This document shows, one piece after another, positions 1 through 4,678 of a stretch of DNA of 5,170 nucleotides. Made by a program: the position numbers and the translations under genes. Origin of the DNA: a virus (Duplodnaviria > Heunggongvirae > Uroviricota > Caudoviricetes); the IMG/VR virus record IMGVR_UViG_2778261151_000013. One strand, written 5' to 3'. Numbering within the stretch: the first letter of the stretch is position 1; every line of letters starts with the position of its first letter. The notes under the pieces are model-generated. The model was not told the origin of the DNA, searched no databases, and worked only from the letters and a program-made list of their open reading frames with translations.

Positions 1-1
1 C

Positions 2-133
2 ATTGAGCGACATAATCTGAATCTGAGACAACATCTGGCAAGGCTGGGACGGAAGTCACTGTCGTTCTCAAAATCGGTGGAGCTGCATGACAAGGTCATC
101 GGGCATTATCTGAACATAAAACACTATCAGTAA
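2..133 (+). CDS. insB: IS1 transposase InsB (or InsAB' fusion), C-terminal 43 codons plus TAA stop; 5' part lies left of the window
   Basis: Only open frame across 1-133 on either strand; translation ends …[13 protein letters not shown], stop TAA at 131-133. Partial, so absent from the supplied ORF track. Confidence 0.75.
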
Positions 134-148
134 GTTGGAGTCATTACC
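126..148. repeat. IS1 right terminal inverted repeat (IRR)
   Basis: ATCAGTAAGTTGGAGTCATTACC resembles the remembered IS1 end (…ATCAATAAGTTGGAGTCATTACC) with one difference. The partner IRL lies outside the window. Confidence 0.7.
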
Positions 149-307: not shown

Positions 308-1216
308 TTATTGTGGTCGGTGACGCTGACTCTGGCAGATCTGACCCGTTTTTACATAATCGAGAAATGCGCGCAAGCCGCAGGACATATACTGGCGGTT
401 TGGATAATAGATCTGGAAGCCTGGACGCTCTGTGCTCCAGTCTCCCAGTACACATTCTAAACGACCAGTATCAAGGTACTCCTTGATCTGTTCATAGAGC
501 AGATACCCGATACCAGCACCCATCAAAACGGCCTCCAGTTCAGCATCAATATCATCCAGAATGATATTTCCTGCGACAGCAATTTCCAGCTCCTTTGCAA
601 ATTGCCAGTGGAAAGGTTTGCCGCTGGGATAACGAAAAACAACACATTGATGATTAAGCAGATCATGAGGATGGCGGGGTTTGCCATATCTTGCAAAGTA
701 CTCTGGCGTTGCTGCTACACATAATTTCACTGGCGGGCCGATCGCCACGCTGATCATATCTTTTTCGACGATGCCACTAAGTCGAACGCCAGCGTCAAAG
801 CCCTGTTGGACGATATCGACAAGAGAGTCGTCAGTTGTGAGCTCGACTTTAATATCAGGATATTCACGTGTGAAACCAACCAGTAAAGGCATTAAAAATA
901 TACGTGCAGCTACCCGGGCGGCATTGATTTTGAGCGTTCCTGTCGGTGTCAGACGAAAATCATTCATCTCATCTAACATGATCTGAATTTCGTCGAAAGC
1001 TGGGCGCAATCGTTCATAGAGATTAGAACCCGCTTCCGTTAACGATACGCTTCGGGTTGTCCGATTGAATAAGCGAATTTTAAGACGTTGTTCCAGTGTT
1101 TTAATACTATGGCTAATGGCGGACGAGGATAAGCCTAATTCATCGCCCGCTGCACGAAAGCTTTGATTACGGGCCACGGCAAAGAAAGTGGCAAAGTCAG
1201 ACATATTCATCCGCAT
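308..1216 (-). CDS. ycaN: LysR-family transcriptional regulator
   Basis: 302-aa ORF with an N-terminal HTH region (MSDFATFFAVARNQSFRAAGDELGLSSSAISHSIKTLEQRL) and a LysR substrate-binding-type C-terminal domain. Diverges from ycaK across 99 bp. Start at ATG 1214-1216 has AAGGA 9 nt upstream; in-frame ATGs at 1210 and 1204 are alternatives. Confidence 0.9.
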   Translation of the reverse strand: MRMNMSDFATFFAVARNQSFRAAGDELGLSSSAISHSIKTLEQRLKIRLFNRTTRSVSLTEAGSNLYERLRPAFDEIQIMLDEMNDFRLTPTGTLKINAARVAARIFLMPLLVGFTREYPDIKVELTTDDSLVDIVQQGFDAGVRLSGIVEKDMISVAIGPPVKLCVAATPEYFARYGKPRHPHDLLNHQCVVFRYPSGKPFHWQFAKELEIAVAGNIILDDIDAELEAVLMGAGIGYLLYEQIKEYLDTGRLECVLGDWSTERPGFQIYYPNRQYMSCGLRAFLDYVKTGQICQSQRHRPQ

Positions 1217-1315: not shown

Positions 1316-1906
1316 ATGCAGTCTGAACGTATTTATTTGGTATGGGCCCATCCTCGTCATGATTCATTGACCGCACATATTGCTGATGCGATCCATCAGC
1401 GGGCAATGGAGCGGAAAATACAGGTGACGGAACTCGATTTATATCGGCGTAATTTCAACCCAGTGATGACGCCGGAAGATGAACCAGACTGGAAGAATAT
1501 GGATAAACGTTATTCTCCAGAGGTTCATCAGCTTTATTCAGAGCTGCTTGAACATGACACGTTAGTGGTGGTTTTTCCTCTCTGGTGGTACAGCTTCCCG
1601 GCAATGCTAAAAGGATATATTGACAGAGTATGGAATAATGGGCTGGCTTATGGAGATGGGCAGAAATTACCATTCAATAAAGTTCGTTGGGTGGCGCTGG
1701 TTGGAGGAGACAAAGAATCATTTGTCCAGATGGGCTGGGAAAAAAATATAAGCGATTATTTGATAAATATGTGCAGTTATCTTGGTATTGAAGATGCCGA
1801 TGTCACTTTCTTGTGTAATACAGTGGTATTCGATGGGCAAGAACTTCATGCGAGCTATTATCAGTCGTTATTATCTCAGGTACGGGATATGGTAGATGCA
1901 CTATAA
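1316..1906 (+). CDS. ycaK: Flavodoxin-like fold NAD(P)H dehydrogenase (quinone) family protein
   Basis: 196-aa ORF with ATG start and strong SD. Sequence (…LVVVFPLWWYSFPAMLKGYIDRVW…) is typical of the NQO/MdaB/KefF-like flavoprotein family. Gene order ycaN-ycaK-pflA matches the E. coli arrangement. Confidence 0.9.
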   Translation: MQSERIYLVWAHPRHDSLTAHIADAIHQRAMERKIQVTELDLYRRNFNPVMTPEDEPDWKNMDKRYSPEVHQLYSELLEHDTLVVVFPLWWYSFPAMLKGYIDRVWNNGLAYGDGQKLPFNKVRWVALVGGDKESFVQMGWEKNISDYLINMCSYLGIEDADVTFLCNTVVFDGQELHASYYQSLLSQVRDMVDAL

Positions 1907-1949
1907 AATGTGTTAAAAACGCTGTAGCAGAATGAAGCGCGGAATAAAA

Positions 1950-1977
1950 AAGCGGCAACTCAATAAAGTTGCCGCTT
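1950..1977. terminator. Bidirectional rho-independent terminator between convergent ycaK and pflA
   Basis: Perfect 11-bp inverted repeat AAGCGGCAACT / AGTTGCCGCTT around a 6-nt loop (CAATAA). An A-run on the left gives a U-tract for the pflA transcript; a shorter T-run on the right serves the ycaK transcript. Confidence 0.6.
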
Positions 1978-1987
1978 TACGGGGAAA

Positions 1988-2785
1988 TTAGAACATTACC
2001 TTATGACCGTACTGCTCAAGAATGCCTTTCACGCGTTCCATGGTCTCTTTCTTAGGTGGTTTAACACCGTCGAGTTTGTACTCTTCACCCATTGCCACCC
2101 ATTTGTGTTTGCCCAGCTCGTGGTAGGGGAGGAGTTCGATTTTCTCAACGTTGCCCATATCACGGGTAAATTCACCGAGGCGATGCGCTGAATCGTCATC
2201 GTCAGACCAGCCTGGGACAACAACGTAGCGGATCCACACCTTCACATTTTTGTTCGCCAGATATTTGGCGAACTCCAGCGTGCGGTGGTTGGAAACTCCA
2301 ACCAGATTTTGGTGGATCTCGTCGTTCATCTGTTTGAGATCGAGCATTACCAGGTCGGTTACTTCCAGCAGTTCATCAATCACCGGATCGTAACGACGAA
2401 CAAAACCGTTGGTGTCCAGACAGGTATGAATGCCTTCTTTTTTGCAGGCGCGGAACCAGTCACGAACAAACTCAGCTTGTAGGATTGCCTCACCGCCGGA
2501 TGCGGTAACGCCGCCGCCGGAAGCGTTCATAAAGTGGCGATAGGTCACCACCTCTTTCATTAAATCTTCAACGGTAACTTCTTTACCGCCATGCGTATCC
2601 CAGGTGTCGCGGTTATGACAATACAGGCAGCGCATCAGGCAGCCCTGGAAAAAGGTGATAAAGCGAATACCCGGGCCGTCTACGGTTCCACAGGATTCAA
2701 AGGAGTGAATGCGACCAATAACTGACTTGGTAGCCCCCGCCGTAGCGGTATTTTCTGTTGTATTACAATTAGTTAAATTACTCAT
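1988..2785 (-). CDS. pflA: Pyruvate formate-lyase activating enzyme (glycyl-radical enzyme activase, radical SAM)
   Basis: From residue 21 the ORF reads [42 protein letters not shown]…GHKVMF, with the CxxxCxxC radical-SAM motif; I recognise this as E. coli PflA. End coordinate is the first in-frame ATG (2783-2785), because the position expected for the normal initiator (2726-2728) reads AAG here. True start is unresolved; the conserved 246-codon body is 1988-2725. Confidence 0.9.
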
Positions 2786-2816
2786 ATCGCTTCAATTGGC
2801 TCTAGTTAACTCTGGT
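2729..2816. other. Candidate prophage-chromosome junction (attL region) between int stop and the conserved pflA body
   Basis: Integrase stop (2817-2819) and the conserved pflA sequence (from 2725 down) are separated by only about 90 bp, where a prophage-free E. coli locus has (from memory) a longer pflB-pflA intergenic region. Core not identifiable without the other prophage end. Confidence 0.4.
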
Positions 2817-3812
2817 TTATGGACGCATTATGGACATTCCTGACACCGGGTTAAGAGTCACTGCATCTTGTAAGAAATCCGGTGCAAAGTGTGCGTAGGT
2901 CATAGTTTGCTGAATGTTAGAATGACCCAGGATGCGCTGCAATGTGATTATGTTACCTCCATTCATTATAAAATGTGTGGCAAATGTATGCCTCAAAACA
3001 TGCACTGCCTGTCCGTCAGGTAAATCGGGTTTTACTTCCCTGAGAGCGTTGCGCACTTTGTAGTAACTGGCATTAAAAAGCCTGCCTGAATTTTTGGTCT
3101 TGATCCGTTTAATCAGGTCCTGCGAAACGGGAATTGTCCTGCGCTTTCCGTTTTTAGTTTTCATAAACGTAACCATCTGGTTAATGATGTGTTCAGCTTT
3201 TAAATTAGACACTTCACTCCAGCGTCCACCAGTAGAAAGGCAGACCAGAGTCGCATTTAATTCATCACCATCGAGCATGGATAACAGCCGTGTAATCTCT
3301 TCACTGGACAAAAAAGCCATTTCTGTAACAGCTTCACGTAATCGCTTAACCTCACGGAACGGGTTGTGAGAATGGTATTCACCGGCGTCAATTAACTTGG
3401 TGAACATCCCGCTCATTATTGCCAGATGCCGATTTACGCTGGCTGGTTTTAGACCATCGTTCATCATTACAACGCGATAATCAGTTATCGTTTTCTTTGT
3501 TAGCTGGTCAGCTCTGGACACTCCCATTTCTGCAAATTTGGCGATTATTGTCGTCAAACGCCCCCGTTCAATATCTCCACGCTCATGTGATTTTCCGTGA
3601 TATATCCACCATCTGCCTAACAACTCTGTAAGAGTTCGGCGGTCGGCTGGCTTCTCCAGCCACTCTTTGTTGTGGTAGTTAACCAGTACATGACGTTCGA
3701 ATGCTTGAGCTTCACCTTTAGTTTTAAATTTCCGCCTGATACGTTTTCCATCTGCACCCTGCGGTCTGACGTCCACTTCATAACGACCATCATCGAGCTT
3801 TTTAATAGACAT
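2817..3812 (-). CDS. int: Tyrosine site-specific integrase, P2 Int family
   Basis: 331-aa ORF. N-terminus MSIKKLDDGRYEVDVRPQGADGKRIRRKF closely resembles P2 Int (MAIKKLDDGRYEVD…). C-terminal catalytic signature present: GGRWSEV (Arg), HVLRHTFATHF (His/Arg box), LGHSNIQQTMTYAHF (Tyr nucleophile). ATG start with GGAGGG 5 nt upstream. Confidence 0.93.
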   Translation of the reverse strand: MSIKKLDDGRYEVDVRPQGADGKRIRRKFKTKGEAQAFERHVLVNYHNKEWLEKPADRRTLTELLGRWWIYHGKSHERGDIERGRLTTIIAKFAEMGVSRADQLTKKTITDYRVVMMNDGLKPASVNRHLAIMSGMFTKLIDAGEYHSHNPFREVKRLREAVTEMAFLSSEEITRLLSMLDGDELNATLVCLSTGGRWSEVSNLKAEHIINQMVTFMKTKNGKRRTIPVSQDLIKRIKTKNSGRLFNASYYKVRNALREVKPDLPDGQAVHVLRHTFATHFIMNGGNIITLQRILGHSNIQQTMTYAHFAPDFLQDAVTLNPVSGMSIMRP

Positions 3813-3905
3813 AAAGCCCTCCGATGACGCTGTTTACTTCTACTACTTGAAAATTAATGCAATTTTCTTTCGTACATTTACTGCATACATATGCTGAATA
3901 AATCG

Positions 3906-4217
3906 TCAGCCAGTCTTTTGGTCTGAGTGGTGCAAGGTTGTTGAGTCTTGCCCAATGTGCGCGAGCGCCGGGGCTATTTGTCCGCCAGCGGGATCAGTTT
4001 CATCAAACATGAACCAGTCACGGTACTTGCGAAATCTTTCAGGCTTGAAAAATTTCATGCCTGCGTCAAAAGACATCTTTACTTTTCCCTGCTCATATCC
4101 AGCATAGGTGTTGTAGTTAATTCCAGTTAATTCAGCAACTTGCTTCCTTGTCATTCTTTCTGACTCCCGAATAAGTGCGAGTTTCTCTGCTTGAGATGTG
4201 ATTTGTGTATTTGACAT
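3906..4217 (-). CDS. Prophage immunity repressor, P2 C-like (HTH)
   Basis: 103 aa from ATG 4215-4217: MSNTQITSQAEKLALIRESERMTRKQVAELTGINYNTYAGYEQG…GGQIAPALAHIGQDSTTLHHSDQKTG. The C-terminal tail resembles P2 C (…SGQIAPALAHFGQNETTSPHSGQKTG). The ORF track's longer version starts at an upstream TTG (4265) and is less likely. Confidence 0.85.
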   Translation of the reverse strand: MSNTQITSQAEKLALIRESERMTRKQVAELTGINYNTYAGYEQGKVKMSFDAGMKFFKPERFRKYRDWFMFDETDPAGGQIAPALAHIGQDSTTLHHSDQKTG

Positions 4218-4265
4218 GAATTGTCGTATCTCGTAATTTATGTTGTATGCGACACACCAGAACAA
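4203..4265. promoter_or_regulatory. Lysis-lysogeny switch region between divergent C and cox: candidate face-to-face promoters and phased repeats (candidate operators)
   Basis: Three related 8-mers at exact 19-bp phasing: TTGTGTAT (4203-4210), TGTCGTAT (4222-4229), TGTTGTAT (4241-4248). Rightward promoter candidate: perfect -35 TTGACA (4211-4216), 17-bp spacer, TAATTT (4234-4239). Leftward candidate on the minus strand: TTGTTC (4265-4260), 17-bp spacer, CATAAA (4242-4237). Assignments are tentative. Confidence 0.4.
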
Positions 4266-4321
4266 CGCAGAGCGGCTTCAAATAGCTCTGGTTGAATGGC
4301 ACCAAAGTTGAGGATATCAAA

Positions 4322-4678
4322 ATGAGTATTGGATCAGAAATGAATAACGATGTTGGAGAAAAAGTATCTGATCTCACAAAAAGTAAAAAATGTGACATCA
4401 AACTTGCAGCCGCACCGTCGGATTTGCTCTCGAAAGAGGGATTTGCTCTTTACATCGGTAAGACGCCTCGTGCTGTTGCTGAAATGGCGAAAGCAGGCAA
4501 GTTACCAGCCTTTTATATGACGGACCCATTAAAGCCGGGCGGTCATGCTGAGTTATGGATTAATCGCCGTGAGTGGGACAAGTACGCAGCCCAACTAGTT
4601 GATGAAGCTCCGACAGAATGGCATGACTGGAAAAATCGCATTAGTTACAGCAAATCAAGACATGGCCGTGCGGCTTAA
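4322..4678 (+). CDS. cox: Cox-like excisionase / transcriptional regulator (P2 Cox family)
   Basis: Central region …FALYIGKTPRAVAEMAKAGKLPAFYMTDPLKPGGHAELW… aligns by eye with P2 Cox (…FAKLIGKSTGAVRRMIDKGKLPVIDMTDP…). Divergent from C as in P2. Start chosen at ATG 4322 (GAGGA 7 nt upstream); alternatives are TTG 4292 (no SD) and ATG 4340. Confidence 0.75.
   Translation: MSIGSEMNNDVGEKVSDLTKSKKCDIKLAAAPSDLLSKEGFALYIGKTPRAVAEMAKAGKLPAFYMTDPLKPGGHAELWINRREWDKYAAQLVDEAPTEWHDWKNRISYSKSRHGRAA

What the first reader, a model, noticed from the sequence alone, without database searches (positions are those of the whole stretch)
1988..4217. pflA is co-oriented with and directly downstream of the prophage C-int lysogenic operon, allowing read-through expression
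C (4217->3906), int (3812->2817) and pflA (2785->1988) are all on the minus strand in that order. The int-pflA gap is 31 bp with no hairpin or U-tract, and the first strong terminator in this direction is after pflA (1950-1977). If the native pflA promoter was displaced by integration, pflA transcription would depend on the repressor promoter (active in lysogens) or an unidentified promoter inside int. That would couple the glycyl-radical activase for pyruvate formate-lyase to prophage state.
Basis: inference. Interest (0 to 1): 0.5.

Follow-up and report, generated by a model that had tools for sequence, protein, structure and literature searches.

The report
Prophage replaces pflA promoter and start
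A P2-like prophage has inserted into the first codons of the E. coli gene pflA (activator of a central fermentation enzyme), carrying off its promoter and start codon and supplying phage-made replacements; fossil copies in Salmonella suggest the replacement works without the phage repressor operon.

Summary
In detail: C, int and pflA are co-oriented, the int-pflA gap is 31 bp and unstructured, and the only terminator-like site on that strand follows pflA. This is attL of a PhiD145-type P2-like prophage, a known att site, and its 13-bp core overlaps the pflA start codon. Integration moves the native promoter, 5' UTR, SD and ATG (now AAG) about 30 kb away to attR. The phage arm supplies an in-frame ATG plus 19 extra codons, giving a 265-aa PflA. 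About 7% of complete E. coli genomes carry this junction, and the same geometry occurs in seven further genera. Read-through from C-int is structurally unavoidable, because int's own terminator lies beyond attP in the free phage. It is probably not required, however. Salmonella enterica and three other taxa carry fossil junctions that lack C and most of int but keep int's last 50-80 codons plus the leader. In Salmonella the 206 nt upstream of the leader ATG are more conserved than pflA synonymous sites. The best explanation is a phage-borne promoter and 5' UTR inside the int 3' end, as with HK022-torS. No transcript data were available.

The parts
1949..1978 (-). Intrinsic terminator after pflA, shared with the convergent gene ycaK. 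It is the first terminator-like site downstream of C-int on this strand.
   Evidence: 13-bp stem with 6 GC pairs, followed by TTTATT.
1988..2785 (-). pflA ORF as it exists in the lysogen (265 aa). Residues 21-265 are host-encoded PflA; residues 1-20 are phage-encoded.
   Evidence: Residues 21-265 are 100% identical to the crystallised E. coli PFL-AE (3C8F/3CB8). PGAP annotates the same 265-aa CDS in lysogens. This exact protein is seen on at least 1000 contigs.
2714..2726 (.). attL common core ACCAATAACTGAC (crossover region). It overlaps the G of the former pflA start codon and codons 2-5.
   Evidence: Three-way alignment of attB, attL and attR. The same core is present in the attP of free phages.
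2727..2785 (-). Phage-derived leader: ATG (2785->2783) plus 19 codons, [20 protein letters not shown]. The last codon, AAG (2728->2726), replaces the native ATG. The leader contains an IHF-core-like motif, TTAA-N4-TTG, at 2776->2766.
   Evidence: An in-frame leader of exactly 20 codons is present in all 8 divergent variants, while the other two frames hold 2-5 stops each. The IHF-like pattern comes from the gap-free alignment and is an inference.
2786..2816 (-). 31-nt int-pflA spacer. It has no hairpin or U-tract and only a weak purine-rich SD (GAAG) 4 nt before the ATG.
2817..2835 (-). Direct repeats GTCCATAA-N3-GTCCATAA with an 11-bp period, overlapping the int stop codon. They are probably Int arm-type sites of the attP P arm.
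   Evidence: TGTCCA...GTCCA is invariant in the 8 variants aligned. The functional assignment is an inference from P2-type attP architecture.
2827..2854 (-). Promoter-like site TTAACC-16-CATAAT at the int 3' end. This is a weak candidate.
   Evidence: 9 of 12 matches; the count is not above shuffles. It is the sigma70-like hit that best keeps its position across sequences in a PWM scan. The region is poorly conserved among the fossils, and L104 has deleted it.
2950..2973 (-). Most conserved block upstream of pflA, TTTTATAATGAATGGAGGTAACAT (perfect TATAAT at 2970->2965), lying inside int codons 279-287. It is the candidate core of a phage-borne pflA promoter or the 5' edge of the constrained 5' region.
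   Evidence: Pairwise identity among the 4 fossils is 0.85 against a 0.48 background, and 0 of 5000 permutations reach it. It is one of the two strongest spots of synonymous-site invariance in int among the lysogen types. It coincides with the -206 conservation boundary between the two Salmonella lineages. Its function is not shown.
2817..3812 (-). int, a P2/PhiD145-type tyrosine integrase of 331 aa. It reads outward as the last prophage gene before the host junction.
   Evidence: The int-C module is 94-99% identical at the DNA level to that of sequenced Peduovirus phages pro147, pro483, S164, P24A7b, 11W and vB_YpM_46.
3906..4217 (-). [quoted passage not shown] A 93-nt gap with no terminator-like site separates it from int.
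   Evidence: The operon logic comes from P2/WPhi (PMC1904263).
4322..4678 (+). cox, which marks the divergent early operon. The Pe/Pc switch region lies in 4218-4321.
   Evidence: Pfam Phage_Cox, E = 1.6e-29; annotation.

Best explanation
The window contains attL of a PhiD145-type P2-like (Peduovirus) prophage that integrates into the first codons of pflA.

Shown: integration transfers the native pflA promoter, the roughly 66-nt 5' UTR, the SD and the ATG to attR about 30 kb away, and the start codon becomes AAG. The phage arm joins the int 3' end, a 31-nt spacer, an ATG and 19 extra codons in frame to pflA codon 2. In the free phage, int's own terminator lies beyond attP.

Inferred: in lysogens PflA is made as a 265-aa protein from the phage ATG at 2785, on transcripts that start inside the prophage and end at the pflA/ycaK terminator. 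The main driver is probably a constitutive promoter and 5' UTR lying within roughly the last 200 bp of int. The conserved block at 2973->2950 is the best candidate for its core or its upstream edge. Read-through of the C-int (Pc) transcript adds to this but is not required. On this view the prophage is a functional 5'-end replacement that keeps PFL activation working, and it is not a switch tied to lysogeny.
For: 1. Junction anatomy. K-12 reads ...GGAGAAACACCGCA ATG TCA GTT ATT GGT. The window reads ...GCT ACC AAG TCA GTT ATT GGT.
2. The K-12 pflA promoter and TSS lie in the pflB-pflA intergenic region. An RNase III site at 951147 is one nt from the mapped TSS, and the ATG is at 951080 (PMC5371410). 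All of this ends up on the attR side.
3. The attP of free phages already carries the ATG and leader as a 27-codon mini-ORF, followed by the ogr/int bidirectional terminator.
4. The junction is in 394-405 of 5426 complete E. coli genomes, with pflA annotated as an intact CDS in every listed record.
5. The same int, 31-nt spacer, ATG and 20-codon geometry occurs in E. albertii, Scandinavium (3 species), Pseudescherichia, Citrobacter and Rahnella, with Int 76-100% identical. A Klebsiella pneumoniae PflA carries the identical leader. The pflA frame is open in all 8 aligned variants, while the other two frames contain 2-5 stops.
6. Fossil junctions lacking C and most of int keep a decayed int C-terminal fragment plus the leader and pflA: Salmonella L100 and L106, and L102, L104 and L098.
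7. Between the two Salmonella lineages, positions -206 to -1 upstream of the leader ATG are 87-97% identical. pflA 4-fold sites are 72% identical, the leader 77%, and positions -236 to -450 are 33-77% identical with indels.
8. The conserved block is an outlier among the fossils and in synonymous-site invariance among the lysogen types.
9. Native N-terminal leaders of 17-24 residues exist in Providencia PflA, so such extensions are tolerated.
10. A precedent exists in HK022-torS, which has the same outward-int architecture, displaced native promoters and a mapped phage-arm promoter (PMC6814406).
Against: No transcript, TSS or protein data were available for any lysogen or for Salmonella pflA. 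No convincing -35/-10 pair could be placed. The TATAAT in the block has no acceptable -35, and neither the int-3'-end candidate nor the Salmonella scan hit is conserved in the fossils. The block encodes the most conserved catalytic motif of Int, so part of its conservation among fossils could be coding constraint inherited from divergent ancestral phages. The sharp conservation boundaries in Salmonella could also be recombination breakpoints, since synonymous identity differs between pflA (0.72), pflB (0.84) and the SopD-family gene (0.91). The fixed length of the leader, and some of its conserved bases, are confounded by attP arm geometry (IHF-like motif). The SD before the phage ATG is weak. 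One fossil (L098) shows an apparent frameshift in pflA. A review describes the Pectobacterium prophage ECA29 at this site as having disrupted pflA.
Confidence: 0.62

Rival explanations
1. pflA in lysogens is transcribed only, or mainly, by read-through of the Pc-C-int lysogenic transcript. PFL activation is therefore coupled to repressor-promoter activity and to prophage state.
For: There is no terminator-like site on the minus strand from C to the end of pflA. The junction RNA is unstructured. In the free phage the first int-strand terminator lies beyond attP, so read-through is the default outcome. [quoted passage not shown]
Against: Fossil junctions in Salmonella and three other taxa retain pflA with the phage leader but have no C, no Pc and only the int tail. 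The upstream neighbours there are on the opposite strand or unrelated. The retained non-coding tail is under constraint in Salmonella. Pc is described as a weak promoter in P2. In HK022-torS the int promoter was not needed.
Confidence: 0.22
2. Integration simply inactivates or strongly silences pflA, as the ECA29 literature describes it. Lysogens would then be PFL-deficient, or would rely on other glycyl-radical activases, until the phage excises.
For: The native promoter, SD and ATG are all removed. The SD before the phage ATG is weak. A review states that ECA29 integration disrupted pflA in Pectobacterium. One fossil (L098) shows an apparent pflA frameshift.
Against: An in-frame ATG and an open 20-codon leader are maintained in every variant across at least 8 genera, although the leader's residues diverge and the other two frames are full of stops. 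pflA is annotated as an intact CDS in every listed record among the roughly 400 E. coli lysogens. The leader-bearing form is the only pflA at this locus in two divergent Salmonella lineages, with a conserved upstream region. From general knowledge, Salmonella makes formate and gas through PFL.
Confidence: 0.08
3. Translation does not start at the phage ATG (2785). It starts near the native position instead, using the G-rich SD-like run GGGGG 5 nt before the AAG, or the ATT at codon 24. In that case the leader is not part of the protein.
For: SD-like G-runs (GGGGG, GGGG, AGGAG, GAGG) sit 5 nt before the AAG/ATG position in the E. coli, Scandinavium, Pseudescherichia and Rahnella variants. Rahnella-type phages keep a true ATG there.
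Against: The Citrobacter variant and Salmonella lack the G-run. From general knowledge, AAG is an extremely poor initiation codon in E. coli. The upstream ATG is invariant and in frame in all variants.
Confidence: 0.06

Closest known systems
Coliphages PhiD145 and PhiD160, and Pectobacterium prophage ECA29 (P2-like phages sharing one att site)
   Same: Nilsson et al. 2011 (PMC3448106) place the PhiD145/PhiD160 attB at MG1655 coordinate 950293 and assign ECA29 the same integration-site identity. ECA29 is reported to lie in pflA. The core found here maps to NC_000913.3 951066-951078. By my recollection of the roughly 777-bp offset between genome versions, that is about 950289-950301 in the older numbering, so it is the same site. 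The gene order ogr-attP-int-C-cox is the P2 type.
   Different: The accessible literature treats the site as an att locus or as a gene disruption. I found no description of the replaced start codon, the conserved in-frame leader or the fossil junctions. Karlsson 2006 and Mandali 2010 could not be read.
HK022 prophage and torS (Carey et al. 2019, eLife, PMC6814406)
   Same: An outward-reading int is the last prophage gene, lying tens of bp from the junction. The native promoters of the adjacent host gene are ablated or moved across the prophage. The host gene is then transcribed from within the prophage, independently of the int promoter. The site is occupied in about 5% of E. coli genomes there and about 7% here.
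   Different: HK022 is lambdoid and integrates upstream of torS, leaving the torS coding sequence and start codon intact. Here the crossover lies inside the start codon, so the phage must also supply the start codon and adds 19 residues. The HK022 promoter is mapped experimentally, whereas nothing is mapped here.
Integrases and islands that target the 5' end of dusA (Farrugia et al. 2015, PMC4482086)
   Same: Both are tyrosine-recombinase elements that insert within the 5' end of a protein-coding housekeeping gene. From my recollection of that paper (only its abstract was seen here), the gene keeps an open 5' end supplied by the element.
   Different: The integrase family and the target gene are different. 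Here the element-supplied 5' end is not a copy of the host sequence beyond the 13-bp core; it is a longer, unrelated leader.
Lambda sib retroregulation and Bertani's P2 'split-operon' idea (int expression changed because attP separates int from flanking signals)
   Same: The int transcript crosses attP in the free phage and meets its terminator only on the other side. Integration therefore gives the int mRNA a different 3' end, which here is pflA plus its terminator.
   Different: No RNase III site or sib-like hairpin was found. The consequence of interest here concerns the host gene, not int. This comparison rests on my own knowledge of lambda and P2 and was not tested here.

Membership tests
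P2-like (Peduovirus) prophage, PhiD145-type att site | P2-type lysogeny module with cox divergent from C-int and int adjacent to att | tested here: met
   Pfam hits for Phage_Cox, HTH, and Int_N plus Phage_integrase. The order and orientation were confirmed. The module is 94-99% identical to that of sequenced Peduovirus genomes.
P2-like (Peduovirus) prophage, PhiD145-type att site | A complete P2-like prophage bounded by attL and attR that share a core with the empty attB | tested here: met
   NZ_CP027587.1 is 100% identical to the window over positions 1900-4300 (the query). It carries about 30.5 kb of P2-type genes from int to ogr between pflA and pflB. The core ACCAATAACTGAC is shared by attL, attR and K-12 attB.
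P2-like (Peduovirus) prophage, PhiD145-type att site | The attB position equals the published PhiD145/PhiD160 site (MG1655 950293) | tested here: met
   Table 1 of PMC3448106. The core lies at NC_000913.3 951066-951078. Converting to the older coordinates uses an offset recalled from memory.
P2-like (Peduovirus) prophage, PhiD145-type att site | Int sequence identity to PhiD145 Int | not tested
   The PhiD145 records (AM158280, AM159077, AJ298559) are not in the searchable collections.
Prophage-encoded outward promoter that replaces a host promoter (HK022-torS type) | The host gene lies directly downstream of, and co-oriented with, the last prophage gene, and its native promoter is separated from it by integration | tested here: met
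Prophage-encoded outward promoter that replaces a host promoter (HK022-torS type) | A transcription start inside the prophage arm, independent of the int or repressor promoter | tested here: inconclusive
   The support is indirect. Fossils lacking C and Pc keep the int tail in front of pflA. The region from -206 to -1 is constrained in Salmonella. No consistent -35/-10 pair was found.
Prophage-encoded outward promoter that replaces a host promoter (HK022-torS type) | Host gene expression is abolished by a terminator placed at the junction, or a TSS is mapped experimentally | not testable with these tools
   This requires wet-lab work or RNA-seq data.
Integrative elements that regenerate the end of the gene they target (tRNA/icd 3' ends, dusA 5' end) | attP carries a surrogate gene end, so an intact ORF exists after integration | tested here: met
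   The mini-ORF in free-phage attP becomes the pflA 5' end. The 265-aa ORF is open in all variants.
Integrative elements that regenerate the end of the gene they target (tRNA/icd 3' ends, dusA 5' end) | The surrogate end is a homologous copy of the displaced host sequence | tested here: not met
   Beyond the 13-bp core (19 bp with two mismatches) the phage leader has no similarity to the native pflA upstream region. It also adds 19 residues.

The most novel reading that the evidence does not exclude
The 3' end of a phage integrase gene has been co-opted as the promoter and 5' UTR of a core metabolic gene, and a phage att arm as its start codon and N-terminus. This is transient in E. coli and Klebsiella lysogens. 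It is fixed in Salmonella enterica, where the sopD2-type effector gene sits in what remains of the same prophage between pflB and pflA. On this reading, regulation of PFL activation in these bacteria is of phage origin and may differ from the K-12 paradigm.
Probability: 0.45. Interest if true: 0.65.

Novelty: new member of a known kind. Interest (0 to 1): 0.5.

Why it matters
PflA is required to switch on pyruvate formate-lyase, the main route from pyruvate to acetyl-CoA and formate during enterobacterial fermentation in the gut. About 7% of complete E. coli genomes, many Klebsiella contigs and several other genera carry this prophage. In all of them pflA no longer has its own promoter, UTR or start codon. 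If expression comes from phage signals, lysogens may differ from K-12 in the level and regulation of PflA and make a protein with 19 extra N-terminal residues. The fossil junctions would also show how a prophage remnant becomes permanent host regulatory DNA. They would tie the Salmonella sopD2 locus to an old P2-like insertion. In practice, annotation pipelines and metabolic models should treat the 265-aa form as a chimeric gene, and curing the phage restores the native gene.

Tried and rejected
1. A conserved internal SD (the G-run before the AAG) as the true ribosome-binding site. It is present in most variants but absent in Citrobacter and Salmonella, so it is not a general feature.
2. Selection on the leader peptide (the MSNLxxC motif). 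The invariant bases form TTAA-N4-TTG, whose complement matches the IHF core consensus, and the variable codons fall on the Ns. Between the two Salmonella lineages the leader is only 77% identical. The conservation is better explained by attP arm architecture.
3. The promoter-like TTAACC-16-CATAAT at 2854->2827 as the pflA promoter. It overlaps the putative Int arm repeats, its -35 is not conserved in the OkiPb01710 variant, the region has decayed in the fossils, and L104 has deleted it.
4. TTTACA-17-TATGGT in Salmonella L100. It is not conserved in the second Salmonella lineage.
5. A hidden hairpin or attenuator at the junction. None was found.
6. A protein search with the 60-aa N-terminus returned only short fragments. 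The full-length search was the informative one.
7. Most IMG/VR prophage contigs are trimmed at the int stop and so say nothing about the junction.
8. Four papers could not be retrieved: Karlsson 2006, Mandali 2010, and Kroger 2012 and 2013. The search produced an irrelevant hit, in which 'pflag' matched 'pflA'.
9. A sigma54-like GG-N-GC motif just upstream of the block has the wrong spacing and is absent in Salmonella (by eye).
Full report
WHAT IS IN THE WINDOW

The ORFs and Pfam hits give this gene order:
- an IS1 end (1-148);
- the ycaM 3' end;
- ycaN (308-1216, minus strand);
- ycaK (1316-1906, plus strand);
- pflA (1988-2785, minus strand; Radical_SAM);
- a P2-type integrase (2817-3812, minus strand);
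- an HTH repressor, C (3906-4217, minus strand);
- cox (4322-4678, plus strand).

Positions 1900-4300 are 100% identical to E. coli 2013C-4974 (NZ_CP027587.1). In that genome a complete P2-like prophage of about 30.5 kb lies between pflA and pflB, running int-C-cox...ogr. The junction RNA has no significant structure (z = 0.21).

I aligned K-12 attB, the window's attL and attR. The crossover core is ACCAATAACTGAC (2714-2726), and it overlaps the pflA start codon. K-12 reads GGAGAAACACCGCA-ATG-TCA-GTT-ATT-GGT, whereas the window reads GCT-ACC-AAG-TCA-GTT-ATT-GGT.

Integration therefore removes the SD and changes ATG to AAG, in addition to removing the promoter. In K-12 the promoter has its TSS about 66 nt upstream of the ATG (PMC5371410). 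The ORF stays open only because the phage arm provides an in-frame ATG at 2785 plus 19 further codons ([20 protein letters not shown]). This gives a 265-aa protein whose residues 21-265 are identical to the crystallised PFL-AE.

At attR, the native promoter, SD and ATG now precede an 8-codon ORF that runs into the ogr terminator.

THE FREE PHAGE

Sequenced Peduovirus genomes share this int-C module at 94-99% DNA identity (pro147, pro483, S164, P24A7b, 11W, vB_YpM_46). Their attP reads: int stop, 31 nt, an ATG opening a 27-codon mini-ORF that mimics pflA codons 2-6, and then the ogr/int bidirectional terminator. The first int-strand terminator therefore lies beyond attP. After integration, C-int transcripts have nothing to stop them before the pflA terminator, so read-through is structurally unavoidable.

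IDENTITY OF THE SITE

Nilsson et al. 2011 list the PhiD145/PhiD160 attB at MG1655 coordinate 950293 and give prophage ECA29 of Pectobacterium the same site identity. A review describes ECA29 as lying in pflA and having 'disrupted' it. The core found here maps to the same place once the genome-version offset is allowed for. The att site is therefore already known.

HOW COMMON AND HOW CONSERVED

The junction is in 394-405 of 5426 complete E. coli genomes.

Int relatives that are 76-100% identical sit directly upstream of pflA in E. albertii, three Scandinavium species, Pseudescherichia, Citrobacter and Rahnella. A Klebsiella pneumoniae PflA with the identical leader is seen on 336 contigs.

Eight variants align without a single gap. 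The ATG is invariant, and the pflA frame is open in all of them, whereas each of the other two frames has 2-5 stops.

The leader residues themselves diverge. The invariant bases form TTAA-N4-TTG, whose complement matches the IHF core consensus. The repeats GTCCA-N6-GTCCA, which overlap the int stop, look like Int arm-type sites. The fixed length of the leader, and part of its conservation, are therefore best attributed to attP architecture and not to the peptide. The evidence that pflA translation is under selection comes down to the open frame and the in-frame ATG. Rahnella-type phages even retain a true ATG with a GGGGG SD at the native position.

NATURAL EXPERIMENTS

A full-length protein search found leader-bearing pflA genes with no integrase gene upstream:
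- In Salmonella enterica (L100, L101) the order is pflB, a 319-aa SopD-family gene on the opposite strand, a 570-nt gap, then pflA.
- A second, divergent Salmonella lineage (L106) has the same arrangement.
- Three other loci (L102, L104, L098) have different upstream neighbours.

tblastn with the window's Int shows that each of these loci keeps only a decayed fragment of the Int C-terminus, starting between residues 254 and 281 and ending between 306 and 331, directly before the spacer and leader. These are fossil attL junctions. C, Pc and most of int are gone, yet the phage-derived 5' end of pflA persists.

Between the two Salmonella lineages:

| Region | Identity |
|---|---|
| Non-coding -206 to -1 upstream of the leader ATG | 87-97% |
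| pflA 4-fold synonymous sites | 72% |
| The 60-nt leader | 77% |
| -236 to -450 | 33-77%, with indels |

Across the four fossils (one Salmonella lineage plus L102, L098 and L104) the most conserved segment is TTTTATAnTnAATrGAGGTAAnAT, which corresponds to window 2973->2950 and contains a perfect TATAAT at 2970->2965. Its pairwise identity is 0.85 against a 0.48 background, and 0 of 5000 permutations reach that value. Among the lysogen types, the same codons are one of the two strongest spots of synonymous invariance in int.

INTERPRETATION

Together these results indicate a functional promoter and 5' UTR for pflA inside roughly the last 200 bp of int, able to work without the lysogenic promoter. 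HK022-torS is the precedent, with an outward int, displaced native promoters and a mapped phage-arm promoter that does not need the int promoter.

Caveats:
- There are no transcript data.
- No convincing -35/-10 pair could be placed. The scan hit at 2854->2827 and the Salmonella scan hit are not conserved in the fossils.
- The block encodes Int's catalytic motif, so inherited coding constraint may contribute to its conservation.
- Mosaic recombination could mimic the Salmonella conservation boundaries.
- One fossil shows a possible frameshift in pflA.

The leader is probably harmless, because Providencia PflA naturally carries N-terminal leaders of 17-24 residues.

VERDICT

This is a new example of two known kinds of event at once. 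One is a prophage that replaces the promoter of a neighbouring host gene. The other is an element that regenerates the end of the gene it targets. It occurs at a known att site, with the unusual feature that the start codon itself is replaced. The Salmonella fossil next to the sopD2-type gene is the most interesting by-product.

Noticed in passing
window 1-148 (IS1 end), with ycaM resuming at 149-307: The left end of the window is the terminal part of an IS1 copy, with the inverted repeat ATCAGTAAGTTGGAGTCATTACC at 126-148, inserted in ycaM just upstream of ycaN. No complete E. coli genome has this exact junction at high identity; five cover at least 80% of the query, at 90-95% identity.
   Followed up: partly
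L100 and L101 (Salmonella enterica GCA_010400525.1 and GCA_011237615.1) 894-2501; L106 (GCA_025579025.1) 1860-3480: In Salmonella a 319-aa SopD-family gene (probably sopD2, judged from memory of its size and locus) lies between pflB and pflA. An int pseudogene remnant and the phage-type leader lie in front of pflA. The effector gene therefore sits in the remains of a PhiD145-type prophage, and Salmonella pflA has a phage-derived 5' end. The gene caller chose a later start in L106, although the 20-codon leader is open there.
   Followed up: partly
L102 2279-2500; L104 1949-2117; L098 1800-2042: Three further fossil attL junctions from unidentified taxa (Logan assemblies) keep only an int C-terminal fragment plus the leader in front of pflA, each with a different upstream neighbour. 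In L098, pflA shows an apparent 1-nt insertion, which could be either a frameshift or an assembly error.
   Followed up: partly
L001 33648-33800 (attR of NZ_CP027587.1): At attR the displaced native pflA promoter, SD and ATG now precede an 8-codon ORF (MSVIGDIF*). The ogr/int bidirectional terminator follows it and would shield the prophage late region from host transcription coming from pflB and pflA.
   Followed up: no
P0127, P0132, P0256 and P0265 (Providencia and relatives); L096 2859-3147: Some Morganellaceae PflA proteins have native Ser/Thr-rich N-terminal leaders of 17-24 residues, with pflB directly upstream and no prophage. Extensions before the xxGRIHS motif are therefore naturally tolerated.
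   Followed up: partly
window 3786-3753 (int codons 9-20, RYEVDVRPQGAD): This is a second hotspot of synonymous-site invariance in int among divergent phages, and it persists when more distant Ints are added. The cause is unknown. It could be a translation or regulatory element of the int mRNA, or a recombination hotspot.
   Followed up: no
E. coli genome search results: Three of the 405 matches to the junction lie on records labelled as plasmids instead of chromosomes. I did not inspect them.
   Followed up: no
L001 9788-11620: The prophage carries a 610-aa DUF7380-domain gene between the replication gene and the portal gene. From memory, that position is a cargo or defence hotspot in P2-like phages. 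I did not examine it.
   Followed up: no
L003 2070-2121 (phage P24A7b): In a related phage of a different immunity type, the scan finds overlapping face-to-face promoter-like sites between C and cox: GTCACA-16-TATAAT on the C strand and TTGACA-17-AATTAT on the cox strand. This fits the convergent Pc/Pe layout of P2. The same scan thresholds find no equivalent in the window's own C-cox spacer (4218-4321).
   Followed up: no
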